A stretch of DNA of 64,000 nucleotides, taken from the NCBI RefSeq assembly GCF_988243305.1, contig NZ_OZ547136.1, one strand, 5' to 3'. The notes below the pieces were generated by a model. That model searched no databases, was not told the origin of the DNA, and saw only the letters and a program-made list of their open reading frames with translations. Of this stretch, positions 7,814-64,000 are shown in pieces (positions within the stretch are counted from its first letter, which is position 1; every line of letters begins with the position of its first letter). Both the position numbers and the translations under genes were made by a program.

Positions 7814-7890
7814 TGGCGCGCTGTACTGGATTCGAACCAGTAACCGATTGCTTAGAAGGCAATTGCTCTGTCCGGCTGAGCTAACAACGC
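7814..7890 (-). tRNA. tRNA-Arg (anticodon UCU)
   Basis: Reverse complement gcgttgttagctcagccggacagagcaattgccttctaagcaatcggttactggttcgaatccagtacagcgcgcca folds as cloverleaf: 7-bp acceptor stem, anticodon loop cttctaa, T-loop ttcgaat, CCA end. Confidence 0.9.
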
Positions 7891-7994
7891 TGAATACCGA
7901 TAATGGACCGCTATCGGGGACCCGCCCCCCCCCGCACCAACAACCCTGTTATCGTGTCGTCTGCTCTTCCTGATAAGCTCATGGCGGTTTGTGA

Positions 7995-8070
7995 TGGTGG
8001 CCCTTGCTGGATTTGAACCAGCGACCTGGCGATTATGAGTCGCTCGCTCTCACCACTGAGCTAAAGGGCC
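7995..8070 (-). tRNA. tRNA with CAU anticodon (Ile2/lysidine type or Met), resembling phage ileZ
   Basis: Reverse complement ggccctttagctcagtggtgagagcgagcgactcataatcgccaggtcgctggttcaaatccagcaagggccacca; perfect 7-bp acceptor stem, anticodon loop ctcataa, CCA end. Confidence 0.9.
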
Positions 8071-8133: not shown

Positions 8134-8180
8134 GTAGAAACTCTTCTAACGTCAGGCATAAAAAGCCCATCGTTATGATG

Positions 8181-8208
8181 AATTTACCACAGATTTCGGA
8201 AAAATCAA
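8181..8208 (-). promoter_or_regulatory. pR'-like late promoter candidate between Q and the terminator
   Basis: Minus strand TTGATT, 16 bp, TG-n-TAAATT (extended -10) in the 80-bp gap between Q stop and terminator hairpin; predicts a short ~60-nt leader RNA like lambda 6S. Confidence 0.4.
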
Positions 8209-8213
8209 CCTTG

Positions 8214-9035
8214 TTACCTAGTTACCTTTTTTAACTGCCGCTCAGCCCATCCTTCTTCAATATCAAACCGGGTCACCAGCGCATCATAGAATTTCTTAAC
8301 TGTTTTTTCCCATGACGCGCGTGTTATCTGGTTTGTCACCTCGCATATAGCATTAAATGCCTCCGTTGATGGTAGTCTTTCATAGCCACGACCACCACAA
8401 CGCTGGCAGTCTCTGATAACAGGCATACCACGTTTTACCGACTCTTCACGGTGAATGGCGACACCACGCCCACGGCAATCCTTACAGGCGGTGGAAACCT
8501 CACCCTTTCCGCCACACTCCGGACAGGCAACTTTTACCACCTCCCTGACTTTTTTCCATTCTTCCCAGTAAGACGGATACACACCTTTCGTACACTTTGC
8601 CCATACCGGCGGCTTACCATCCGGATACTGGACCTTGTTTGTAAAAACTACGCTTTCAATAAATTTTTCCCCATAGCAACAAGGGCACTGCTTTTTACTC
8701 GCTGCGCTGCGGGCATAATCCTCAAAAGCGTACGAAGCCATAATGCGCATCACTACCGGTTTTATTTCTGCCGGAAGTTTTCTCAACGCCGCCACACGAT
8801 CGCACCGACTGAGTGCATAATCTGCCAGTAATTCTGTTGCCCGCGCCCTGTCATTCATACTGATGCCCATTTTCCCCAGGAACGCAGAAAACCCCATCTC
8901 AGCCCGATTCTGTGTCATGCCCTGCGCGGCCATCACATCAGTGATACTCAGCGCATCTTTTGACGTTGAGGCCGATGCATCGGTCAGGCAAGGGGATTTT
9001 GGGGAGTAGTATTTCGGTAAATCTTCCAGTTTCAT
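8214..9035 (-). CDS. Late-gene antiterminator Q (Cys-rich, Qin QuuQ / phage 82 type)
   Basis: 273-aa ORF MKLEDLPKYYSPKSPCLTDAS...CPCCYGE...CPECGGKGEVSTACKDCRGRG...; position immediately upstream of pR'/tR' and lysis genes. Confidence 0.7.
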   Translation of the reverse strand: MKLEDLPKYYSPKSPCLTDASASTSKDALSITDVMAAQGMTQNRAEMGFSAFLGKMGISMNDRARATELLADYALSRCDRVAALRKLPAEIKPVVMRIMASYAFEDYARSAASKKQCPCCYGEKFIESVVFTNKVQYPDGKPPVWAKCTKGVYPSYWEEWKKVREVVKVACPECGGKGEVSTACKDCRGRGVAIHREESVKRGMPVIRDCQRCGGRGYERLPSTEAFNAICEVTNQITRASWEKTVKKFYDALVTRFDIEEGWAERQLKKVTR

Positions 9036-55868: not shown

Positions 55869-56120
55869 AAAAAAAAGTCCTGGGGTTAAGTAAGGAACTC
55901 CAGGACGCGGCAAACACTCAACCGTTTTTCATAAGGAAATCAGCAATCGCACCGATCGTTTTCCCGCCTGGTAATGAATATTGGCGAGCACATTAACAGG
56001 CGGGAAAGTGGCCCCAGCGTCCTGGCACCACGGGCGAGAATAATCATGATTCAGTTCGGGTAAAATATGCCGATCCGCTCAGTGAACAACGTGGAACAAC
56101 CACGAACAAATAATTTACAA

Positions 56121-56150
56121 AAAATAACAAAAAGCCGGATTGCTCCGGCT
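56121..56150 (-). terminator. Rho-independent terminator
   Basis: Hairpin agccgga-ttgc-tccggct followed on minus strand by TTTTGTTATTTT. Confidence 0.6.
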
Positions 56151-56169
56151 GTATGTGCTGTATGGGTGC

Positions 56170-56394
56170 TCAGTCTCTGATCCCTTTCAGAAATTCTATC
56201 AATGCATCTGTCTGTTCAGGATTTACTGCCAGCATTTCACCGGATAGCGCGCAACGAACAAAACCATGATGATCCTTTTCAATCAGTGCGCCCGTCTCCA
56301 GGAATGCGCGGTAATCATTGATGCTCATCGTCTCCATGTTGTCAGCATGGTATTTATCACGCTGTTTTAATATCTCATCAAATTTCATCGGCAT
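56170..56394 (-). CDS. Small hypothetical protein (start at internal ATG)
   Basis: MPMKFDEILKQRDKYHADNMETMSINDYRAFLETGALIEKDHHGFVRCALSGEMLAVNPEQTDALIEFLKGIRD. Confidence 0.45.
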   Translation of the reverse strand: MPMKFDEILKQRDKYHADNMETMSINDYRAFLETGALIEKDHHGFVRCALSGEMLAVNPEQTDALIEFLKGIRD

Positions 56395-56489
56395 TGTTTT
56401 TTCCTCTGTTGTGTCTGTTTGTTTCAGATAGTAACTATGCCTGACCGTGACGAAAACCCGGTAATGCGCCATACCGTTTCAACTGGTGC

Positions 56490-56513
56490 AAAAAAAGCCG
56501 GATTTCTCCGGCT
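56490..56513 (-). terminator. Rho-independent terminator
   Basis: Hairpin agccgga-tttc-tccggct preceded on plus strand by AAAAAA (T-run on minus). Confidence 0.6.
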
Positions 56514-56563
56514 GTGTGATTAGCTGTCCTGGTAATTGCGCCATATTTCATCACCAGCACCAT

Positions 56564-56791
56564 CTATCCCCATTTCGGCATAAGTGCGATCGACTGCCTT
56601 TTCAGGTCTCCGTAATTATCCGGTGGCTCCGGTGGCCTCTGTGCCTTCCTGGAACATTCCAGCCGTCGCATCGTGATGTGATGCCGTTCCTTGTCTGTCT
56701 CCACCAGCAGCATGACTTCACCCCATCGCGCCGACGCCCTCCGGTAAAATCCTTTAGCCTCGAGTTCCTCCGCTATGCGGTCATGTACCAT
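56564..56791 (-). CDS. PerC-family-like transcriptional regulator (start uncertain)
   Basis: ...AEELEAKGFYRRASARWGEVMLLVETDKERHHITMRRLECSRKAQ... resembles PerC; track ORF overlaps the SSB gene so a downstream start is assumed. Confidence 0.4.
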   Translation of the reverse strand: MVHDRIAEELEAKGFYRRASARWGEVMLLVETDKERHHITMRRLECSRKAQRPPEPPDNYGDLKRQSIALMPKWG

Positions 56792-56801
56792 CCTCACCCC
56801 C

Positions 56802-57212
56802 TCAGAACGGAATACCGTCACCGTAAGGGTCATCGCCTCCCGCTGGTGGCTGATTACCCTGTGTGCCTGTGGTTTTGCGTCTGTTCCCGCCAGGACGTGC
56901 CGCACGGGCACTGATTACGCTGTCTGCAATAACCTGCCAGCCCTGCCGCGTTTCTCCGTTCTGTCCGGTCCACTGGCTTACCTGCATCGTGCCGGATACG
57001 CTGGCAACATCGCCTTTTTGATGTTTAGCCAGGAAGTCGGCCTGTTTGCCAAATGCGATGACCGATAACCATAACGTCGCCTGTCCGTCCTGTGCCTGGC
57101 TGCATGGCAAAGATACCGCCATACGCGCCAGCGTCATCGGTGTGCCCTTGCTGGTCTGTTTTACCTGCGGGTCGTCCACCAGCCGCCCGTAAGCGGCTAT
57201 CTGTGCCGTCAT
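56802..57212 (-). CDS. Single-stranded DNA-binding protein (phage type)
   Basis: 136-aa ORF with OB-fold-like N-terminus, Gly/Gln/Pro-rich linker and acidic C-terminal tail DDPYGDGIPF. Confidence 0.7.
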   Translation of the reverse strand: MTAQIAAYGRLVDDPQVKQTSKGTPMTLARMAVSLPCSQAQDGQATLWLSVIAFGKQADFLAKHQKGDVASVSGTMQVSQWTGQNGETRQGWQVIADSVISARAARPGGNRRKTTGTQGNQPPAGGDDPYGDGIPF

Positions 57213-57409
57213 AATTCCACCTCTCCGGTTTTAACGTTGATGGTTGTTACCTGTTCCGCTTCGGCAATCTCCCGTTCTGTCAGCGTGGCAAAGTTTGCCG
57301 CCGCCGTGGTCATGAATGCGCTTATCAGGTCGGGATGTTCCTTCGCGTATCCTTCCCGCGTGTGGCGGTCTATCGTTCTGATTGCCACCTTTAAAGCGTG
57401 CTCAGTCAT
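57209..57409 (-). CDS. Small hypothetical protein (start at internal ATG to avoid the iteron region)
   Basis: MTEHALKVAIRTIDRHTREGYAKEHPDLISAFMTTAAANFATLTEREIAEAEQ... Confidence 0.35.
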   Translation of the reverse strand: MTEHALKVAIRTIDRHTREGYAKEHPDLISAFMTTAAANFATLTEREIAEAEQVTTINVKTGEVEL

Positions 57410-57469
57410 GTCTAACGCTTTATATTTTGGCTCTGTTCTGTCTCTGCGTTTTTGGGTCATTTCTCGCAA

Positions 57470-57665
57470 CCTCTCACTTTTTCGCCTCACTTTTTCAAGC
57501 GTCTCACTTCGTCGCAGTTGGGATTTTCGGTTTTTCTATGTGTGTGTTTCATAAGTATTTTTTTACCCCTCACTTTTGAGGATGTATACAGGTCGAAAAG
57601 TGAGGGAGAGCGGGCTAATTTTGGCCCTCTTTCTATCCCCCTCGCTTTTGCTCCTCACTTTTATA
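57470..57665. repeat. Island replication origin candidate: six or more CTCACTTTT iterons (one inverted) with an AT-rich stretch, directly downstream of the helicase gene
   Basis: cctctcactttttcgcctcactttttcaagcgtctcacttc...cccctcacttttgagg...cgaaaagtgaggg...ctcgcttttgctcctcactttta. Confidence 0.7.
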
Positions 57666-59061
57666 GCGGCGCTACATCATCCCCATCGATACGAATAACC
57701 CCATCTTTTTCCAGCTTGTACAGCCAGCGCCGGAAGTTTTTCATTTCATACCCCAGTTTTTTCATGTCATCACGTAACAGCGGGATCGTGCACTTGTCGC
57801 CGTTCTGTGTGCGTGAACGGATGCACCCCCATAGCGCGGTATGGTTTTCCGTCTTGTTCCCTGCCTCCTCGATGCGCTCCAGTTCAACAGGAGGGCGCGG
57901 ATCATCCACCACTACCAGCGACGTGATTAATTCACCGTCAGCGTCGGTAAAAAGCTCCACCACGCGTAAGTCATATGCGGCTTCTTTGAGTTCCTCCGCG
58001 TCCTTCATTTTGGTGCATGAGATAACCAGCGCTTCGCTTCCTGCGTCCTCCCTGCGTATCCGGTATTCAGCATCCAGCGAAGCACGAAATGCACTGGAAC
58101 CGCGCGCGCCTTTCGTCTCATCCTTGCCGGAATGGTGAACCACCAGCACCGTGGCCCCTGTGCGTCGTTTCAGTTCGTCACAACCACGGATAAACGCCCC
58201 CATATCACGGGAATCATTTTCATCATTCCCACCAAAGCAACGCGCCAGCGTATCCAGAATAATCATGCGTACAGGTTTACCCGTTTCCCGCTCCACCTGA
58301 CGGGCAGCGATAACCATTTCATCAACATCAAGCGGGGCAGCCGGAAAGATGGGGCGGTTTACCAGATACAGATTTTTCACCTGCTCATCGTGCACAACCT
58401 CCCAGGCTTTTACACGACGCGGAACACCTATACCGCCTTCACCAACCACATAGAGAACCGCACCATGTGCAACCCTGCGGCCTCCCCACTGGCGACCAGT
58501 GGCAACATGGCACGCCCACGATCCGGCAAGGAATGATTTATAGGACCCGCTAGCCCCGTATATGCTGCATAGCGATACCGCCGGAATAATCCCCTTAACC
58601 ACGTAATCCAGTTGCGTGTCGTATCCGGTAGATCCAACGCTCATCGGTAGCGTGGTTTTTCGCTGGTGGTTTTTTTCTTCCACCGGCTCTTTCCCGCGCA
58701 CCCGTTCCAGGTATTCGCGCCAGTTCTCCCGCATATGGCTGTGCATCCCTTCGGGGTAATAATTCGCATCAGTTACACCCGCCGCCGCCAGCTTGTGCGC
58801 AATGGCATTAATATTTGATGGCCTGATGTGGCCTGCCTTGTACAGCCGGACACAATAGCGCCCCTCGTCGATGATTCTCAGGTCTGCCAGTTCATCCAGT
58901 TGATCATCAGCCAGCACAACGGGAGGCACATTATCGCCAGCCAGTCGCCCGTCCTGTTCCTGCCACTGTTTCGCATGTGCCCAGGCATCACTACCCGCAA
59001 AAATAATGACTTCGGTCATCTTGTCGTAAGGCTGTTTTTTTAAGTTCGGTGCGCTTTTCAT
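57661..59061 (-). CDS. Replication initiator / helicase-like RecA-fold ATPase (RepA/DnaB-like)
   Basis: 466-aa ORF with Walker A GASGSYKS and RecA-like C-terminal domain; followed by iterons. Confidence 0.65.
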   Translation of the reverse strand: MKSAPNLKKQPYDKMTEVIIFAGSDAWAHAKQWQEQDGRLAGDNVPPVVLADDQLDELADLRIIDEGRYCVRLYKAGHIRPSNINAIAHKLAAAGVTDANYYPEGMHSHMRENWREYLERVRGKEPVEEKNHQRKTTLPMSVGSTGYDTQLDYVVKGIIPAVSLCSIYGASGSYKSFLAGSWACHVATGRQWGGRRVAHGAVLYVVGEGGIGVPRRVKAWEVVHDEQVKNLYLVNRPIFPAAPLDVDEMVIAARQVERETGKPVRMIILDTLARCFGGNDENDSRDMGAFIRGCDELKRRTGATVLVVHHSGKDETKGARGSSAFRASLDAEYRIRREDAGSEALVISCTKMKDAEELKEAAYDLRVVELFTDADGELITSLVVVDDPRPPVELERIEEAGNKTENHTALWGCIRSRTQNGDKCTIPLLRDDMKKLGYEMKNFRRWLYKLEKDGVIRIDGDDVAPL

Positions 59062-59357
59062 TTCTTGCCCCTGAATCCGTTAATCATGGTTTTCAGCTTC
59101 TGGATGTTTGCCCGTGCCCTGGCGTTGCTGGTGGGCACGTTATGCGGCGCGGTCTGTACCAGAGAAAAATCACGCCGGAACTGATAAACAGGCATCACGC
59201 AATCATATTCGTAACCTTCACGGCGGTAGGTTACGCGCCGTTCTTCCACGCCCTTAATCATTACCGTGCCGCCGTACTGGTCGCGGTAAATATCACCGCG
59301 CGTAAATTTAGGGTGAGTGTTGCCACTGGCAGTTAAGCCAGAATATTTAAGTTTCAT
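59058..59357 (-). CDS. Hypothetical protein
   Basis: 99-aa ORF translationally coupled to helicase gene. Confidence 0.4.
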   Translation of the reverse strand: MKLKYSGLTASGNTHPKFTRGDIYRDQYGGTVMIKGVEERRVTYRREGYEYDCVMPVYQFRRDFSLVQTAPHNVPTSNARARANIQKLKTMINGFRGKK

Positions 59358-59362
59358 TATTT

Positions 59363-59596
59363 TTATTCTCCGGTGTGCTGTTCTTTATATCTGTCGTGCA
59401 ATAGATCTATTTCTTGCAGTTCCATTATTACAGGCTCAAGAAGCGTTATTAATGCCGTGGCAATTCTTGATTTTTGTTTGTCGCGTTCATTGTCGCCAAG
59501 TGTTTCAAGCCATATGCGCAATATTTCCAGCATGTTTTCACTGTGAGAAAGTGCAAGAAATACGCGGTCTATTGTTTCGTGGTAAATATCACGCAT
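59363..59596 (-). CDS. Hypothetical protein
   Basis: 77-aa ORF in same-strand small-gene array. Confidence 0.4.
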   Translation of the reverse strand: MRDIYHETIDRVFLALSHSENMLEILRIWLETLGDNERDKQKSRIATALITLLEPVIMELQEIDLLHDRYKEQHTGE

Positions 59597-59597
59597 A

Positions 59598-59819
59598 TTA
59601 ATCCCCGTCCGTCGTTTTTCTTAAAATAACCTCTGTCACGAAATCAGCATAATCGGCGGCGATATTCAGTACATCAAGCCCCGTTGATTTATATTCTCTC
59701 GTGGAAAGTAAGAAAAAAGCCGCTCTAATAAGTTCTGGCATTGACGAAAGCGCATCAGCCGCATCATCAGGAACGCCGGAAAATTCCTGTTTCAGGGAAT
59801 TAAAACGATCATCACGCAT
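59598..59819 (-). CDS. Hypothetical protein
   Basis: 73-aa ORF in same-strand small-gene array. Confidence 0.4.
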   Translation of the reverse strand: MRDDRFNSLKQEFSGVPDDAADALSSMPELIRAAFFLLSTREYKSTGLDVLNIAADYADFVTEVILRKTTDGD

Positions 59820-60034
59820 AACCCCCCCCCATTTTCACAATCAGCAACAAGAATATTTTTAGCGTCATTCAGCGACCGCGTTGCGATGTATCGGATACAT
59901 TCCAGGGCGAACTGTGTCCGGTCTTTCTGTTCTTCTCCCTGCGCAAGCTCTGCAGTGCATTCAATATCGATAAGCGCGTGCATCAGCGTAGTGAGCGCGG
60001 CGGCTGCTGCGTCCGGTGTGGTTTTATTGCACAT
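59792..60034 (-). CDS. Hypothetical protein (start at internal Met)
   Basis: MCNKTTPDAAAAALTTLMHALIDIECTAELAQGEEQKDRTQFALECIRYIATRSLNDAKNILVADCENGGG... Confidence 0.35.
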   Translation of the reverse strand: MCNKTTPDAAAAALTTLMHALIDIECTAELAQGEEQKDRTQFALECIRYIATRSLNDAKNILVADCENGGGLCVMIVLIP

Positions 60035-60314
60035 GGCACACCTCCTGACGAATACGGGCGGCGAATACAGCAACACAACCGGACGGGCAACGGCTACGCG
60101 CTTCGCGTTCCGTCCAGGCGGTTACGTGGATGATTTGAGATTCTCCGGCACTTAGTGCCAGAAAACGCCACACAAAGGCCGTTTGTGTGTGTATAAGGCG
60201 TGGTATATGATTTACGGCAACCATAACGGCTCCTAGTTTACGTTGTTGGTTAGACGCCCCGTATGTGTTCCCAGCACTGCGGGGCGTTGATTTTTGTGTA
60301 ATGGCAAGTACAAT

Positions 60315-60358
60315 GGTAATTACCATGTAGGTATAGTAATGAAGGGTAATTACCATGT
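60315..60358. promoter_or_regulatory. Two copies of operator-like palindrome GGTAATTACCATGT, the second overlapping the RHH gene start codon
   Basis: caatGGTAATTACCATGTaggtatagtaatgaaggGGTAATTACCATGtca. Confidence 0.6.
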
Positions 60359-60528
60359 CAACACCATTAGAAAAACGTTCGCCTCCATACCAAATGCGAT
60401 TACCGGAAGACTTCAGAGCGCAGCTAGAAGAAGCAGCTAAGGCCGATGGCGACACATCTTTAGCCACTTGGATTAAACGCGTTCTCCGCAAAGAATTACA
60501 GCAACGCGGCATAGAGCCAAAAGGTTGA
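60355..60528 (+). CDS. Ribbon-helix-helix (Arc/CopG-like) DNA-binding protein
   Basis: 57-aa product MSTPLEKRSPPYQMRLPEDFRAQLEEAAKADGDTSLATWIKRVLRKELQQRGIEPKG; RHH-like beta-strand (MRLPEDF) then helices; too short for ORF track. Confidence 0.55.
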   Translation: MSTPLEKRSPPYQMRLPEDFRAQLEEAAKADGDTSLATWIKRVLRKELQQRGIEPKG

Positions 60529-60549
60529 ATTTCAGAAGGAGATAAAATA

Positions 60550-60702
60550 ATGAACTGGCTGTTACATACCCTCCCAGGTCGCATTCTCATTGCACTAATT
60601 ATTTTATGGATTTTGTACCAATTCGGTTTTTTCGATTCGCTTTGGAAGCCTGACTGTTCCGTTAACCCTGGCGATGTACTGAAAGGCTGTAAAAATGGCT
60701 GA
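60550..60702 (+). CDS. Small membrane protein (50 aa)
   Basis: MNWLLHTLPGRILIALIILWILYQFGFFDSLWKPDCSVNPGDVLKGCKNG; SD aggagat; followed by hairpin ccctctt/aagaggg terminator. Confidence 0.45.
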   Translation: MNWLLHTLPGRILIALIILWILYQFGFFDSLWKPDCSVNPGDVLKGCKNG

Positions 60703-61057
60703 TCAGGGTTACTCCCTGTAATGCCTTTAACTGGCCCTCTTAAAGAGGGTTGGTTATCTTCGCAGCTCTCTACGTTTTTCGTCGGAACCTCTGAACCTAA
60801 GCAGTGTTGATGTTCAGGAGAACCCGAATACTGTTCGTGTTCGTTGCTCGCCAATTCTCGCGTTTCGCGATAATCAAAATGATTCAATGGGTTGAGATGT
60901 CCGTACGTTAAACGTACGCGGTTAATTTGTACATGCGAATTTCGTCGGCTCAAATTCTGCGCAACCCTGCTTGAGTTATGCAAATAGCACGCGGCTAACT
61001 CACAAGGATTTGAGCGCCCCCAAACGGGGGAGCGCAAAATTTTAGGCATAAGACGCA

Positions 61058-61771
61058 TCAGCGAATCTCCAACACTGACGATGAAGTGATCAGGCTGGCG
61101 AACGCATCCATACGGCGGGCAACCTCACGCACCGCATCGCCTGGACTCATGTCATTACGCACCGCCTCATTAAAGGCCGCCTGTTCGATTTTCTGCATCA
61201 CTACCAACAGCCCCAATTGCTGTTCGTCTGCGGTACCGCGTTCACCATCAGACAAACCAGCCACGCGGTTTTCAGCGCGGGCCAGATTGATGTAATGGTG
61301 CCGTTGTGCGCCCAGAGCTTTTAATCTGTCGCGGCTTTCGTGATAGCCAGGCAGGTACTCACGGCGGATAGGTTCTGCGGCGCGGCGCTTAGTGAATGCC
61401 TTCGTAACATCCAGTTTGAACTGGTTAATACGCTCAGGATCACGCCCTCGGGTGATACGCAGCAGATAGTCGAGCTGCGGCTCATTCAGCAGATAACTAA
61501 TCTCAGGACGCCCACGCTTTCGGCCGGATTTTCCCGATTTCAAATCGGTTAATTCCTTGAGTGACTGACGAGGCAGTGATCCCAGCTCGCGCAATCTGCT
61601 CTGGTGCGATTTAATCGTCGCGCTTAAGCTTTCATGTTGTATTCCGGCTCGCTCTGAAATAACGCGGGAATCGATACGCGGCTCCGATTTGTGATTAATT
61701 AAAATATCGCTCTGGCTGGCTTCAGGGCGAACGAATCCCCGCCCACGTTCTGGCGTATATTCAATCTTCAT
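61058..61771 (-). CDS. Phage regulatory protein (Rha-family-like), assignment tentative
   Basis: 237-aa ORF; N-terminal ...ILINHKSEPRIDSRVISERAGIQHESLSATIKSHQSRL... resembles Rha-type regulators. Confidence 0.4.
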   Translation of the reverse strand: MKIEYTPERGRGFVRPEASQSDILINHKSEPRIDSRVISERAGIQHESLSATIKSHQSRLRELGSLPRQSLKELTDLKSGKSGRKRGRPEISYLLNEPQLDYLLRITRGRDPERINQFKLDVTKAFTKRRAAEPIRREYLPGYHESRDRLKALGAQRHHYINLARAENRVAGLSDGERGTADEQQLGLLVVMQKIEQAAFNEAVRNDMSPGDAVREVARRMDAFASLITSSSVLEIR

Positions 61772-61828
61772 GGTTATAGCTCTGTGTTCAGATGATTGAT
61801 GTGTGGCGGCTGCGTGCCGCCAGCGTGA

Positions 61829-62017
61829 TTAATGAACTGCCTTGCAGCTATCCTTCCAGGCCAGAACCTCGGATAAAGACCAGCCAACGGAACGACCGCC
61901 AAGTTTACGACGTGATGGGAATTGTCCGGCCTTTTCCAGGCGGTAGCGACACGTACGGCTAAGGCCGGTTAGTTTTTCGCATTCTTTTTCACGTATAAAC
62001 CGATCAGTGCTTAACAC
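61829..62017 (-). CDS. alpA: AlpA-family transcriptional regulator / excisionase
   Basis: 62-aa ORF ...EKLTGLSRTCRYRLEKAGQFPSRRKLGGRSVGWSLSEVLAW... (AlpA HTH pattern). Confidence 0.7.
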   Translation of the reverse strand: MLSTDRFIREKECEKLTGLSRTCRYRLEKAGQFPSRRKLGGRSVGWSLSEVLAWKDSCKAVH

Positions 62018-62290
62018 TATTGCCCCCTTTCGTTTCTTAAAGAGTCATCAGGTGTCTTATTGTGTCGTATTGTTCCCGCTAGAGTGATAAATGGCAAATA
62101 CTGAGGATGTATGATTTACAGAAAATGAAACAGTAAGAATAAAATCTTTTAAATTCATGTTAATACAAAGGCATAAAATATTGTTTCATGCCTTTTTTCT
62201 CGCTCTTTAAAGAGTGATTCGCTAGTGTATAAAAAACCAGTAACGCATTAAAAATCAGCTACTTATAAATCCGTACGCTTTTTCGCCTCT

Positions 62291-62340
62291 TGTTCGTAGT
62301 TGTTCCACATTGTTGCTCATTGTTGCACGTTGTATCTGTT
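62291..62340. repeat. Five tandem 10-bp repeats TGTTnnnnnT (GAACAA-type on minus strand) between int and alpA
   Basis: tgttcgtagt tgttccacat tgttgctcat tgttgcacgt tgtatctgtt read directly. Confidence 0.55.
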
Positions 62341-62381
62341 CGCATATACAGTATGCGCATACTGAAAAAACACGAAAAAAA

Positions 62382-63599
62382 TTATTTTCTTCTGGCTACT
62401 GGTAGCGTGGTTACGTTTTCATGTGTTCCCGCCAGTATCCCTAACCGCTCCGTCCACATATCCAGCGCATTGCGTTTAGCATCCAGATAACGGGAATGAT
62501 TATAAACTCGCTGCATTCCTGGCATCTGGTGGCCTGTAAGCTGCTCCACGACATGCGGATCAACGCCTAAATCGTTCAGCATGGTTGTAAAGGTGCGCCG
62601 GATGTCATGCAGTGACCAGTGAGGATGATTAAGCCTCCTGTGCGCTAATCTTCCATACTGCGATACGCTGGCCTCCTGTTTCACTTCCCCCAGCAATAAG
62701 CCCGTGTGCCTGTTCTGCTCCACCAGCTGCGTGACGAACGGCAGGATCGCTTCCGGTATGGGCCGGAATATTGCGACCTTCGTTTTGCTGTGCTCCTTCG
62801 GAACGGTCCATAGCATTTCCGTAAAATCCCACTCCCCGATCTCCGATAACCTCAGTTCTACCGTTCTGGCTCCGAAGACAATCAGGAGGCGGATTAACGC
62901 GACGTAGTAAGGGGAGAATATTTTTTTGTCCAGTGCCTGCAATAATTCGCCAAGTTCTTTGTTACTTAAGACACGTTCGCTTATATCCGGTTTTTTCCCA
63001 ACGTCCGCCACGTTCAGATCGTCCAGAACGTTGCTGATTGCATAGCGCCGCCTACGGCAGAACTTAAGCGCCTGTTTGCACGCCTGTAGCACGAATCCGG
63101 CAGTAACAGGCGTTCGCTTTGCCACCTGGTCAAAACAGGCCAGCCAGTGCCGTAGCTCGCATTTATCCAGCGGCATAGCACCAATCTGCTGTATTACGTG
63201 ATTATTAAGTCGCCTTTTCAGGGCGATATAATCCACGCGGTTTTCCTTTACGTAATACTCAAGCCAGTAGGTGAGCGCATCGCCAACCGTTACGGGCTTT
63301 AACGCTTCCTGTACGGTGTAATTCATCTCATGACGTGGATTTTTCCCCTCAGCCAGCCATGTGCGACACTGTGCGGCTTTTTCCCTGGCTGCTTTCAGGC
63401 TCAGATCAGGATAACTTCCCAGCTTAATGCGTTCGGGTCGTGTCTCCCTTCCCGTTCCGGCCCTGTATGTGAAATACCAGGTCAATTTCCCTGATGTTAA
63501 ATATTTCACGCTCAGGTTTCCGCCATCACTATAAAACGTGTTTTTCTCCGCTGGCTTACCATGAAGTTTCCTTAGCAAGGTATCGCTCAGTTTGTTCAT
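62382..63599 (-). CDS. int: Tyrosine integrase (P4-like, PICI-type)
   Basis: MNKLSDTLLRKLHGKPAEKNTFYSDGGNLSVKYLTSGKLTWYFTYRAG...; C-terminal ...HDIRRTFTTMLNDLGVDPHVVEQLTGHQMPGMQRVYNHSRY; track ORF starts 4 codons earlier at GTG. Confidence 0.9.
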   Translation of the reverse strand: MNKLSDTLLRKLHGKPAEKNTFYSDGGNLSVKYLTSGKLTWYFTYRAGTGRETRPERIKLGSYPDLSLKAAREKAAQCRTWLAEGKNPRHEMNYTVQEALKPVTVGDALTYWLEYYVKENRVDYIALKRRLNNHVIQQIGAMPLDKCELRHWLACFDQVAKRTPVTAGFVLQACKQALKFCRRRRYAISNVLDDLNVADVGKKPDISERVLSNKELGELLQALDKKIFSPYYVALIRLLIVFGARTVELRLSEIGEWDFTEMLWTVPKEHSKTKVAIFRPIPEAILPFVTQLVEQNRHTGLLLGEVKQEASVSQYGRLAHRRLNHPHWSLHDIRRTFTTMLNDLGVDPHVVEQLTGHQMPGMQRVYNHSRYLDAKRNALDMWTERLGILAGTHENVTTLPVARRK

Positions 63600-63635
63600 T
63601 GCTCTGCTCACGTTTTACCCCCTCTTTACGAAAAA

Positions 63636-63708
63636 GTGACTACACCAGTGACTACACCGATCGTTGCACAAAGGGCTACAACGTGAAACAAGCTGGAACA
63701 AGGAAAAT
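63636..63708 (+). repeat. Arm-type direct repeat block, right end (GTGACTACACC x2 plus GAAACAA/GGAACAA)
   Basis: gtGACTACACCaGTGACTACACCgatcgttgcac...gtgaaacaagctggaacaa; matches left block at 48539-48597. Confidence 0.6.
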
Positions 63709-63786
63709 CACAAATCTGTTGATAATCAAAAACATAATGCACAGCCTGAAACATTATGAAACAGCAAAAAACACTAAATGATAAAA

Positions 63787-63795
63787 TGCTGTTAT
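63787..63795 (+). repeat. attR core (TGCTGTTAT)
   Basis: Identical to 48458-48466; tqsA sequence resumes here. Confidence 0.7.
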
Positions 63796-64000
63796 TCTTA
63801 ACCCGCTGGTGCAACACATGGTCCGCTGGCGAGTGCCGCGTGTACTGGCGGTGTCGATTTTGATGACCATCATCGTGATGGCGATGGTGTTGCTGTTAGC
63901 TTATCTGGGTTCCGCACTCAACGAGTTGACGCGGACGTTACCGCAATATCGCAACTCTATTATGACGCCGCTGCAAGCGCTTGAACCGTTGTTGCAACGC
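63787..64000 (+). pseudogene. tqsA: tqsA 3' portion (continues beyond window end), separated from its 5' end by the island
   Basis: In-frame [69 protein letters not shown], contiguous with the 48330-48466 fragment once the island is removed. Confidence 0.85.

What the first reader, a model, noticed from the sequence alone, without database searches (positions are those of the whole stretch)
60895..61040. 17-bp perfect palindrome and GC hairpin in the intergenic region upstream of the Rha-like gene
CGTACGTTAAACGTACG (~60903-60919) is a perfect palindrome between the plus-strand RHH unit and the minus-strand Rha-like gene, and a GC-rich hairpin (gcgccccc aaac gggggagcgc) follows near 61012-61033. 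Candidate operator or terminator for the divergent regulatory region of the island.
Basis: seen in the sequence. Interest (0 to 1): 0.25.

Follow-up and report, generated by a model that had tools for sequence, protein, structure and literature searches.

The report
Hairpin modules inside satellite leader ORF
The palindrome and the GC hairpin are real, but they are not in a control region upstream of a gene: they are two of several short hairpin modules between two converging genes of a phage satellite, inside a long reading frame kept open like the eta gene of satellite P4, so this is a modest variant of a known arrangement.

Summary
Both features exist: the palindrome CGTACGTT-A-AACGTACG at 60902-60918 and an imperfect GC hairpin at 61012-61035. 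The Rha-like gene (61058-61771, minus) ends here, so the RHH unit and the Rha-like gene converge. The 355-bp "intergenic" stretch is fully covered on the minus strand by a 344-codon ORF (60024-61058). Its ATG overlaps the Rha-like stop (TGATG) behind a GGAG. It runs antisense through the RHH gene and ends as the Icd-like gene. That matches P4 eta/kil and the published PICI "Bro zone". The frame stays open in more than 40 related satellites, through 27-, 54- and 174-nt indels.

The real switch lies 550 bp away: two GGTAATTACC operators over face-to-face promoters at 60287-60361. The palindrome is not the RHH operator, because it persists unchanged with at least five operator types. It is one optional module in a mosaic of short hairpins. 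In 27 satellites these hairpins are terminator-like almost only on the RHH-sense strand (63 sites against 10).

Most likely they stop RHH-sense transcription without blocking the translated minus-strand transcript. The palindrome's exact conservation remains unexplained. Interest is modest.

The parts
60902..60918 (.). 17-bp palindrome CGTACGTT-A-AACGTACG. The conserved 20-mer is TCCGTACGTTAAACGTACGC (60900-60919). It reads RVRLTYG in the minus-strand ORF.
   Evidence: The exact 17-mer occurs in 39 IMG/VR contigs and 4 species genomes. There are no compensatory changes.
61005..61043 (.). GC hairpin module. The core GCGCCCCC-AAAC-GGGGGAGCGC is at 61014-61035. The extended stem pairs AGGAUUU with AAAUUUU. 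It covers codons 6-18 of the minus-strand ORF.
   Evidence: -17.9 kcal/mol on +, -16.7 on -. Searches show the same 34-nt block in other satellites, and inverted inside AntA/B-like genes.
60024..61058 (-). eta-like ORF of 344 codons. It spans the whole 'intergenic' stretch, runs antisense through the RHH gene and the small ORF, and ends in an Icd-like domain (aa 295-338).
   Evidence: One frame is open for 700-1290 nt in about 54 of 56 distinct loci, while the other two minus-strand frames are open for only about 50-150 nt.
61056..61070 (-). Translational coupling site: GGAG (61070-61067), an 8-nt spacer, then ATG (61058-61056) overlapping the TGA of the Rha-like gene (61060-61058).
   Evidence: The overlap is ATGA in 8 and TGATG/TAATG in 3 of 13 scorable distinct loci, each behind GGAG(G).
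60024..60224 (-). Nested Icd-like (kil-like) gene of 66 codons, in frame with the long ORF, with its own AGGAG (60234-60230).
   Evidence: Homologues are annotated as Icd-like by PGAP.
61058..61771 (-). Rha-like Bro-zone gene (237 aa). It ends at 61058, so the finding lies 3' of it.
   Evidence: Phage_pRha, E 1.7e-5, below the Pfam cut-off.
60355..60528 (+). RHH-type small regulator (57 aa, YlcI/YnfO-like), lying antisense inside the long ORF.
   Evidence: Homologues are annotated as YlcI/YnfO or HicB-like.
60550..60702 (+). 50-aa hydrophobic ORF with a strong AAGGAG. It is an insertion of 174 nt (58 codons) relative to L001 and keeps the minus-strand frame.
60287..60361 (.). The real control region. 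It holds face-to-face promoters (+: TTGATT N16 TACAAT at 60287-60314; -: TTGACA N17 TACTAT at 60361-60333) and two operators ATGGTAATTACC/GGTAATTACCAT at 60313-60324 and 60345-60356.
60730..60760 (+). First + strand terminator-like module: CCCTCTTAAAGAGGG (60735-60749) followed by TTGGTTATCTT. It is the most widespread module and reads PSLRG on the minus strand.
   Evidence: -13.9 kcal/mol, z -3.36. The same module is flagged as terminator-like in L004 and L001. The PSLRG motif recurs.
60854..60874 (.). Hairpin ATTCTCGCG-TTT-CGCGATAAT, which shows compensatory changes in relatives.
   Evidence: CG to AU at two pairs in 4 sequences, AU to GC at an outer pair in 3, and G.U on the minus strand in 4.
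60820..60837 (-). 18-mer GAACCCGAATACTGTTCG, reading EQYSGS on the minus strand. The same block occurs in genuine phage Bro-N genes.
60704..60718 (.). Hairpin CAGGGTTACTCCCTG. In relatives it directly follows the RHH stop codon.

Best explanation
What is shown. The window carries a capsid-forming, PICI-type phage satellite at roughly 49.2-63.6 kb. On the minus strand its early genes run int, alpA, Rha-like, then a 344-codon ORF. That ORF starts on the stop codon of the Rha-like gene and ends as the Icd-like gene. It is the counterpart of the nested eta/kil genes of satellite P4. The small RHH regulator gene lies antisense inside this ORF and points towards the Rha-like gene. The palindrome and the GC hairpin are two of at least eight short hairpin modules packed into the 355 bp between the RHH unit and the start of the ORF.

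What is inferred. The modules mainly act as one-way barriers on the RHH-sense (+) strand. They are hairpins followed by T-rich tails, and they would stop transcription from the RHH promoter before it runs antisense into rha, alpA and int. CCCTCTTAAAGAGGG would be the first barrier, with the palindrome and the GC hairpin as weaker back-ups. On the minus strand the same sequences lack U-tails and contain no stop codon in the ORF frame. Transcription coming from the alpA side can therefore pass. As in P4 eta, it would be protected from Rho by ribosomes that are coupled to the Rha-like gene.

Not established: why the palindrome sequence itself is kept exactly. This may be a second, sequence-specific role.
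For: Topology and ORF
- Gene map and convergence.
- One minus-strand frame is open for 700-1290 nt in about 54 of 56 distinct loci, against 50-150 nt for the other two frames.
- Indels between the window and L001 are 54, 54 and 27 nt. The distances from the 18-mer to the palindrome are 34, 82 or 136 nt. The small-ORF insertion is 174 nt.
- The start codon overlaps the upstream stop behind GGAG(G) in 11 of 13 scorable loci.
- An Icd-like domain sits at the C-terminus (1.1e-16).

P4 parallel
- P4 has the same layout: a 214-codon frame starting at the end of vis and ending in an Icd-like domain.
- PMC10111431 states that eta is coupled to the alpA homologue and that its translation prevents termination. 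It places such genes in the PICI Bro zone.

Open but not protein-like
- The codon score is -0.02 bit/codon, against +0.24 and +0.27 for neighbouring genes.
- A neighbouring hairpin keeps its pairing while the encoded residues change R to N, T to P and R to L.

Strand asymmetry
- In 27 distinct satellites the stretch holds 63 terminator-like sites on the RHH-sense strand (11.1 expected) against 10 on the other strand (4.5 expected). All sites in L001, L004 and L017 are on that strand.
- Canonical + strand terminators occur in relatives: L001 AAGACG..CGTCTTGATTTTTTTT, and L004 GGCGGCC..GGCCGCCTTTGTTTTG over codons 3-13 of the ORF, near where the window has the GC hairpin (codons 6-18).
- The palindrome plus CGGTTAATTT is flagged as + strand terminator-like in the window and in L004.
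Against: - The palindrome hairpin is weak (-7.9 kcal/mol, z -0.84). Its T-rich tail is absent in the Proteus-type, L071 and L075 contexts, where the 17-mer is nevertheless exact.
- The GC hairpin has AAAA between the stem and UUUU, and the simple scan does not flag it.
- A generic terminator would be expected to drift in sequence, whereas the 20-mer is invariant across unrelated flanks.
- In L001 a canonical terminator lies upstream of the palindrome, so the palindrome is largely redundant as a + strand barrier there.
- The 27 regions are related, so the 63:10 count overstates the number of independent events.
- No transcript data were available. The Rho and translation steps are carried over from P4 and were not tested.
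Confidence: 0.45

Rival explanations
1. The palindrome is a sequence-specific protein-binding site. A dimeric host or helper-phage factor would bind the 8+1+8 dyad, which can also be read as two CGTACG hexamers 11 bp apart. Bound there, it could act as a roadblock or sensor on the path from the alpA operon into the icd-replication operon.
For: - The exact 17- to 20-mer is kept while both flanks are replaced (window-type, Proteus/L081/L085/L123-type, L071, L075-type).
- The centre base can flip from A to T without loss of symmetry (L038).
- In L071 and L078 the symmetry extends to 12-bp arms.
- There are no compensatory changes, as expected for a read sequence rather than a bare stem.
- The 17-bp 8+1+8 geometry resembles lambda-type operators (my own knowledge).
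Against: - No satellite DNA-binding protein co-varies with it: at least five RHH operator types, three AlpA subtypes with different recognition helices, and several Bro-zone genes all occur with it.
- CGTACG is not enriched elsewhere in these elements (30 found against 31.6 expected).
- None of 50,697 phage records carries it apart from one satellite.
- 11 of 36 eta-like loci lack it.
- One-sided variants that break the dyad are tolerated.
Confidence: 0.2
2. The hairpins act in RNA on the minus strand or between the two strands. Either they are structures in the eta-like mRNA that form only when it is not translated (processing, pausing or termination signals, as around P4 CI/seqA), or they are sense/antisense kissing hairpins through which the long RHH 3' tail pairs with the 5' part of the eta-like mRNA and blocks its translation.
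For: - Both strands fold better than shuffles (z -4.05 and -3.57).
- A neighbouring hairpin shows compensatory changes. Its one-sided changes give G.U on the minus strand but A.C on the plus strand in 4 sequences.
- The inserted hairpin CTCGG..CCGAG behaves in the same way.
- In relatives the RHH-sense terminators sit over the first codons of the eta-like ORF, so RHH transcripts would be fully antisense to its 5' part.
- P4 provides a precedent for RNA immunity inside eta.
Against: - No Rfam family matches, including C4 and isrK, even at E up to 10.
- No complementarity was found between the icd leader and this stretch.
- Palindrome variants give a mixed picture: one G.U on each strand and two plain mismatches.
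- The compensatory changes may trace back to a single event.
- The first + strand terminator would end most RHH transcripts 150 nt before the palindrome.
Confidence: 0.15
3. One reading: the palindrome is an operator for the RHH or Rha-like protein, and the GC hairpin is the terminator of the adjacent Rha-like gene, within a divergent control region.
For: The palindrome is a perfect dyad close to two regulator genes. The GC hairpin begins 23 nt after the Rha-like stop codon. L001-type RHH operators (ACGTACGTAC) share the hexamer CGTACG with the palindrome.
Against: - The genes converge, and the promoters and paired operators are at 60287-60361.
- The window's own operators are GGTAATTACC, and the palindrome is independent of RHH type.
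- The palindrome occurs with AntA/B-like and other upstream genes in place of the Rha-like gene.
- On the minus strand the GC hairpin is followed by CAAAUCCU, with no U-run.
- The GC hairpin lies inside an ORF coupled to the Rha-like gene. In L056 and L070 it sits about 45 codons into that ORF, after a different upstream gene.
Confidence: 0.05
4. The features have no function of their own. The stretch would be recombination debris of the fast-shuffling Bro zone: fragments of Bro-N and AntA/B genes and old terminators. The only constraint would be that no stop codon appears in the translated frame, and the palindrome is conserved only because the family is young.
For: - The stretch contains a Bro-N gene fragment (EQYSGS block) and an inverted fragment of an AntA/B-like gene (the GC block).
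- Modules vary in order and number.
- The window segment 60736-61744 is 97.6% identical to an E. coli fis-side island while its flanks match a different, O157-type island, which indicates recent exchange.
- The family is narrow: 4 of 100,044 species genomes and 10 of 5,426 E. coli genomes.
- The translated product has only 32 small unnamed protein clusters as relatives.
Against: - The terminator-like sites are strongly biased to one strand and enriched over shuffles.
- A hairpin shows compensatory changes.
- The palindrome is retained exactly where another module nearby has drifted (Proteus-type CCCTCTTAAAGATGG).
Confidence: 0.15

Closest known systems
Nested eta/kil genes and the immunity region of satellite phage P4 (Forti et al. 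1999, as summarised in PMC10111431)
   Same: - A long ORF starts at the end of the AlpA/Vis-side gene and ends in an in-frame Icd/Kil-like gene that has its own ribosome-binding site.
- A promoter lies inside the ORF.
- The long ORF is reachable only from the upstream promoter.

   Different: - The ORF is 344 codons here against 197-214 in P4.
- A Rha-like gene is inserted between alpA and the ORF.
- There is no CI/seqA RNA: no C4 or isrK match.
- Instead, an RHH protein gene with its own operators lies antisense inside the ORF.
- The N-terminal part has no Phage_ASH match.
- There is no DNA similarity outside the Icd part.
The 'Bro zone' of Gram-negative PICIs (PMC10111431)
   Same: The position is the same, between the integration zone (int, alpA) and the replication zone. 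The segments are mosaic and domain-swapping, include Rha, AntA/B and Bro-N relatives, and the zone has an immunity function.
   Different: That paper treats the zone as protein segments plus immunity RNAs. The short palindromic hairpin modules, their strand bias and the antisense RHH gene were not mentioned in the passages of that paper read here; I did not read it in full.
Intrinsic (Rho-independent) terminators between convergent genes
   Same: Hairpins followed by T-rich tails are clustered where two transcription units meet, and they act in one direction.
   Different: The terminators lie inside a translated ORF on the other strand and avoid stop codons in it. The palindrome is weak, and the GC hairpin lacks an adjacent U-run.
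BIME/REP-type mosaic palindromic units of enterobacterial intergenic regions (my own knowledge)
   Same: Short palindromic units are combined in variable order and number at the ends of operons and between convergent genes.
   Different: There is no sequence similarity. These units are confined to a narrow group of satellites and are kept in frame.

Membership tests
Intrinsic terminator (palindrome, + strand) | A stable G+C-rich stem-loop | tested here: not met
   7 pairs of which 4 are G-C, a 3-nt loop, -7.9 kcal/mol, z -0.84; 34 of 200 shuffles fold as well.
Intrinsic terminator (palindrome, + strand) | A U-rich tract directly after the stem | tested here: inconclusive
   The tail CGGTTAATTT passes the simple scan in the window and in L004. 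The tail is not T-rich in the Proteus-type, L071 and L075 contexts.
Intrinsic terminator (GC hairpin) | A stable G+C-rich stem-loop | tested here: met
   -17.9 kcal/mol (z -3.86) on the + strand and -16.7 (z -2.90) on the - strand.
Intrinsic terminator (GC hairpin) | A U-rich tract directly after the stem | tested here: not met
   On the + strand AAAA separates the stem from UUUU. On the - strand the tail is CAAAUCCU. The scan does not list it.
Operator of the adjacent RHH repressor | Sequence matches the sites at the repressor's own promoter | tested here: not met
   The window's operators are GGTAATTACC, present twice. That decamer occurs only at 60315 and 60345.
Operator of the adjacent RHH repressor | The site changes together with the repressor type in relatives | tested here: not met
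   The palindrome is identical alongside at least five different operator types. Only 6 of 28 loci have CGTACG-type operators.
P4 eta/kil-type nested leader ORF | A long ORF that starts at the stop of the upstream AlpA-side gene, with a ribosome-binding site | tested here: met
   TGATG overlap behind GGAG in the window. The start overlaps the upstream stop in 11 of 13 scorable loci.
P4 eta/kil-type nested leader ORF | An in-frame C-terminal Icd/Kil-like gene with its own start | tested here: met
   phage_ICD_like at aa 295-338 (1.1e-16). AGGAG, 5 nt, then an in-frame ATG at 60224. P4 shows the same arrangement.
P4 eta/kil-type nested leader ORF | The frame is conserved open across relatives despite indels | tested here: met
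P4 eta/kil-type nested leader ORF | A promoter inside the ORF that drives the short gene | tested here: inconclusive
   A consensus match, TTGACA N17 TACTAT, lies at 60361-60333 (10 of 12 positions). There are no transcript data.
P4 eta/kil-type nested leader ORF | Translation of the long ORF prevents Rho-dependent termination | not testable with these tools
   Carried over from P4, as summarised in PMC10111431.
P4 eta/kil-type nested leader ORF | CI RNA and seqA-type target inside the ORF | tested here: not met
   No C4 or isrK match, nor any other Rfam match. No leader-to-target complementarity.
Structured non-coding RNA (any Rfam family) | A match to a curated covariance model | tested here: not met
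   Only chance-level hits, at E 0.28 to 7.6.
Structured RNA hairpin (palindrome) | Compensatory base changes that keep the stem | tested here: not met
   Every pair has 0 both-sided changes. Variants break the pairs. The neighbouring hairpin at 60854-60874 does show such changes.

The most novel reading that the evidence does not exclude
The invariant 20-mer TCCGTACGTTAAACGTACGC is a dedicated recognition site. It would be bound by a host or helper-phage dimeric protein, or act as a sense/antisense kissing hairpin. It would gate read-through from the alpA operon into the icd-replication operon. That would make it part of how this group of capsid-forming satellites senses its helper, sitting in a region where one DNA stretch has to be at once an open reading frame on one strand and a one-way terminator array on the other.
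Probability: 0.12. Interest if true: 0.6.

Novelty: new variant of a known kind. Interest (0 to 1): 0.3.

Why it matters
How Gram-negative PICI-type satellites stay silent and sense their helper is still unclear. AlpA is an activator, and no master repressor has been identified (PMC6092414).

This locus shows a P4-like translated leader ORF in which the RNA immunity determinant appears to have been replaced by a small RHH repressor gene lying antisense inside the ORF. A set of one-way hairpin barriers follows it.

If the model holds, it explains why annotation pipelines report a gap or an Icd-like pseudogene here. It also gives a simple testable switch for these elements. For the palindrome and the GC hairpin themselves the practical message is modest. 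They are not the island's operator. Deleting them without keeping the reading frame would give polar effects that could be mistaken for regulation.

Tried and rejected
- **Known RNA families.** Rfam scans of 56000-64000 (E up to 1) and 60000-61100 (E up to 10) gave only chance hits. A known RNA, including C4 and isrK, is rejected.
- **DNA similarity to P4.** Only the Icd-coding end aligns.
- **P4-style pairing.** No pairing was found between the icd leader and the stretch. The 27-nt long-range pairing 60771-60797 / 60890-60916 that the MFE folds use is not kept in L004-type relatives, so I dropped it.
- **Origin of replication.** Rejected, because the stretch is shared by satellites with P4-type primase and with RepA helicase.
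- **RHH, AlpA or Rha-like operator.** Rejected by the lack of co-variation.
- **Helper-phage operator.** A BLAST of a 30-mer against 50,697 phage records found only the satellite vB_KppS-Ant. This search cannot see imperfect operators.
- **Real protein domain.** There is no Pfam match, only 32 small unnamed clusters among 5.8 billion proteins, and a neutral codon score.
- **An unbiased sample of palindrome variants.** The 16-mer anchor search returned mostly chance hits.
- **Chance occurrences.** The palindrome in L083 lies inside an ordinary coding gene. L069 was not examined beyond its AT-rich flanks. I set both aside as probable chance occurrences.
- **Literature.** Forti et al. 1999 (PMC94026) is not held in the library. 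P4 details therefore rest on PMC10111431 and on my own knowledge.

Full report
**1. The observation.** The 17-mer CGTACGTTAAACGTACG is at 60902-60918, with 8-bp arms around a single A. The GC hairpin gcgccccc-aaac-gggggagcgc is at 61014-61035. It is imperfect: five C-G pairs, then three more pairs across a 2-nt bulge. With its flanks (61005-61043) it folds at -17.9 kcal/mol, z -3.86. The palindrome alone is not statistically special. Perfect 8-bp-arm inverted repeats with a 1-nt spacer number 2 in the window against 1.4 in shuffles, and with spacers of 0-5 there are 21 against 6.7. As RNA it is a weak hairpin, -7.9 kcal/mol with z -0.84.

**2. Where it sits.** The window end carries a satellite of the capsid-forming PICI type:
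- integrase at 62382-63611;
- AlpA at 61829-62017;
- a weakly Rha-like gene at 61058-71771's correct span 61058-61771;
- DUF4222 and a RepA-type helicase at 57661-59061;
- long minus-strand ORFs at 49.5-55.9 kb, which by their sizes and by the annotated capsid and protease genes in L001/L002 I take to be capsid, protease, portal and large terminase genes (not tested here).

All of these are on the minus strand. Annotated relatives appear. The Rha-like gene ends at 61058, so the finding lies 3' of it, not upstream. The + strand RHH gene (60355-60528) and a 50-codon hydrophobic ORF (60550-60702) point towards it. The two units therefore converge rather than diverge.

**3. The stretch is not ORF-free.**
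- A 344-codon ORF (60024-61058, minus strand) covers all of it.
- Its ATG (61058-61056) overlaps the TGA of the Rha-like gene (TGATG), with GGAG 8 nt upstream.
- It runs antisense through the small ORF and the RHH gene.
- Its last 44-48 residues are an Icd-like domain (NCBIfam NF033153, 1.1e-16).
- An internal AGGAG-ATG at 60234-60222 starts the 66-codon Icd-like gene in the same frame.

Loci collected with the 18-mer GAACCCGAATACTGTTCG (62 IMG/VR contigs) and with the palindrome (39 contigs) show the same picture. One minus-strand frame is open for 700-1290 nt in about 54 of 56 distinct sequences, while the other two minus frames are open for 50-150 nt. Thirty-six loci end in an Icd-like C-terminus.

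Indels respect the frame:
- 54, 54 and 27 nt between the window and E. coli FDAARGOS_1283;
- spacings of 34, 82 or 136 nt between the 18-mer and the palindrome;
- 174 nt for the small-ORF insertion.

In 11 of 13 scorable distinct loci the first ATG overlaps the upstream stop (ATGA or TGATG/TAATG) behind GGAG(G).

The 5' part nevertheless does not look like ordinary coding sequence. Its codon score is -0.02 bit/codon, against +0.24 and +0.27 for the Rha-like and RepA genes. It has no Pfam match. Only 32 small unnamed protein clusters resemble it. Where a neighbouring hairpin changes, pairing is kept while the encoded residues change R to N, T to P and R to L. I conclude that the frame is kept open for translation as such, not for its protein product.

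**4. Comparison with P4.** P4 has a 214-codon frame (8168-8812) that starts at the end of vis/ORF88 and ends in an Icd-like domain. This is the nested eta/kil pair. PMC10111431 summarises the P4 work as follows:
- a constitutive promoter lies inside eta;
- eta translation prevents termination, so the late promoter reads through;
- such genes belong to a mosaic "Bro zone" between the integration and replication zones of Gram-negative PICIs.

The window fits this layout. Three things differ. No CI/seqA RNA is detectable (Rfam). No leader-to-target complementarity is present. A protein regulator gene sits antisense inside the ORF.

**5. The real control region.** It lies at 60287-60361. Promoter-like sites face each other: TTGATT N16 TACAAT on the + strand and TTGACA N17 TACTAT on the - strand. 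Two copies of ATGGTAATTACC / GGTAATTACCAT overlap them, at 60313-60324 and 60345-60356. Relatives have paired sites at the same position with different sequences:
- TGTAATTACA;
- ACGTACGTAC;
- GGTGYGTACCTAT as an inverted pair;
- TATAGGCATAT;
- GAATCGCAC.

Each type goes with a different RHH protein. This is the pattern expected of immunity types.

**6. The palindrome.**
- It is present, with up to two mismatches, in 25 of 36 eta-like loci and absent from 11, so it is an optional module.
- It stays identical alongside at least five RHH operator types, three AlpA subtypes with different recognition helices, Rha-like, AntA/B-like and other upstream genes, and either primase or helicase.
- CGTACG is not enriched elsewhere in these elements (30 found, 31.6 expected).
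- It is therefore not the operator of any satellite protein I could identify.
- Variants are one-sided and break the dyad (CGTACATT....AAAAGTACG..ACGTATG..ACGTTCG). None is compensatory.
- The exact 20-mer nevertheless survives where both flanks are replaced: Proteus-type L081/L085/L123, L071 and L075. This is unexplained.
- Among 100,044 species genomes it occurs in four, all Enterobacterales. Among 50,697 phage records it occurs only in the satellite vB_KppS-Ant.

**7. The GC hairpin.**
- The 34-nt block GATTTGAGCRCCCCMAAACGGGGGAGCGCAAAAT is another module.
- It occurs in the same orientation in the eta-like ORFs of L001, L056 and L070, where it reads LRSPVWG. In L056 and L070 it lies about 45 codons in.
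- It also occurs in the opposite orientation inside AntA/B-like genes of other satellites, where it reads DLSTPKRGSAKS.
- It has no U-run directly after the stem on either strand.
- In L004-type loci a canonical + strand terminator (GGCGGCC..GGCCGCC TTTGTTTTG, -18.5 kcal/mol) occupies codons 3-13 of the ORF, near where the window has the GC hairpin at codons 6-18.

**8. Strand bias of the modules.** The stretch is a mosaic of short hairpins. In the window these are:
- CAGGGTTACTCCCTG at 60704-60718;
- CCCTCTTAAAGAGGG at 60735-60749;
- CTGAAC..GTTCAG at about 60793-60818;
- ATTCTCGCG..CGCGATAAT at 60854-60874;
- the palindrome;
- the GC hairpin.

Relatives add or remove units in multiples of three bases. 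I applied the terminator pattern (stem, loop, then a T-rich tail) to the stretch between the RHH stop and the eta-like start in 27 distinct satellites. It finds 63 sites on the RHH-sense strand (11.1 expected) and 10 on the other strand (4.5 expected). The tool's own scans of L001, L004 and L017 list only + strand sites. In the window the sites are CCCTCTTAAAGAGGG with its tail and the palindrome with its tail.

**9. Most likely mechanism.**
- Shown: the topology, the conserved coupled ORF, the nested Icd-like gene, the separate operators and the strand-biased hairpins.
- Inferred: the hairpins stop RHH-sense transcription before it runs antisense into rha, alpA and int. Minus-strand transcripts from the alpA side pass because the hairpins have no U-tails in that direction, and because coupled translation protects the RNA from Rho as in P4.
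- On this view the palindrome and the GC hairpin are weak back-up barriers behind the first terminator at about 60750.

**10. Novelty and limits.** The architecture is known from P4 eta/kil and the PICI Bro zone. Three points were not found in the passages of PMC10111431 and PMC6092414 that I read: the antisense RHH gene in place of RNA immunity, the in-frame one-way hairpin array, and the invariant palindrome module. All related loci are close relatives and mosaic, so the counts are not independent events. No expression data were available.

Noticed in passing
window 60287-60361: Face-to-face promoter-like sites with two perfect copies of GGTAATTACC (12-nt arms ATGGTAATTACC / GGTAATTACCAT). 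One copy overlaps the RHH start codon. This is probably the island's immunity switch. Relatives carry different paired sites at the same place.
   Followed up: partly
window 60550-60702 (+): A 50-codon hydrophobic ORF (MNWLLHTLPGRILIALIILWILYQFGFF...) with a strong AAGGAG, inserted between the RHH gene and the hairpin modules. It is absent from L001. The insertion is 174 nt and keeps the opposite-strand frame open. L018 has an unrelated 51-codon hydrophobic ORF at the same place.
   Followed up: partly
window 60820-60842; loci L019, L020, L024, L029, L033 and others: A block of about 23 nt (minus strand GAACACGAACAGTATTCGGGTTC, encoding EHEQYSGS) is shared between the satellites' eta-like ORFs and genuine phage Bro-N antirepressor genes. 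It may be a relic of a Bro-N gene, or possibly an RNA pairing site against helper ant mRNA.
   Followed up: partly
window 61005-61043; L003, L007, L012, L028, L032, L053, L081: The 34-nt GC-hairpin block occurs in inverted orientation inside AntA/B-like genes of other satellites, where it encodes DLSTPKRGSAKS.
   Followed up: partly
window 62349-62364: A perfect 16-bp palindrome, CAGTATGCGCATACTG, lies just after the integrase stop codon in the int-alpA spacer. It is flanked by a T-run on one side and an A-run on the other. The spacer also holds CGTACG at 62272.
   Followed up: no
window 60225-60326 (-): The roughly 100-nt leader between the internal promoter-like site and the Icd-like start contains a stable hairpin, AACGCCCCG...CGGGGCGT (60252-60286). 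This is the position of CI RNA in P4, but there is no Rfam C4 or isrK match.
   Followed up: partly
window 60250-61800 against E. coli genomes: The locus is mosaic. 60250-60524 and 61723-61800 match an O157-type island next to roxA at 98-99% identity. 60736-61744 (hairpin modules plus the Rha-like gene) matches a different island next to yhdJ in strain FDAARGOS_1283 at 97.6%. In the O157-type island PGAP annotates the equivalent stretch as an Icd-like pseudogene.
   Followed up: partly
L071 7186-7480: The same module family (an extended palindrome ACTCCGTACGTTAAACGTACGGAGT, CGACGAAATTCGTCG and CCTACGAAATTTTCGCAGG) also occurs at the far end of another satellite. It lies after the large-terminase gene and next to the chromosomal hpt gene, again inside a short open frame.
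   Followed up: no
window 7814-8070: tRNA-Arg(TCT) and tRNA-Met(CAT) genes on the minus strand, far from the island. No tRNA gene lies next to the integrase end within the window.
   Followed up: no
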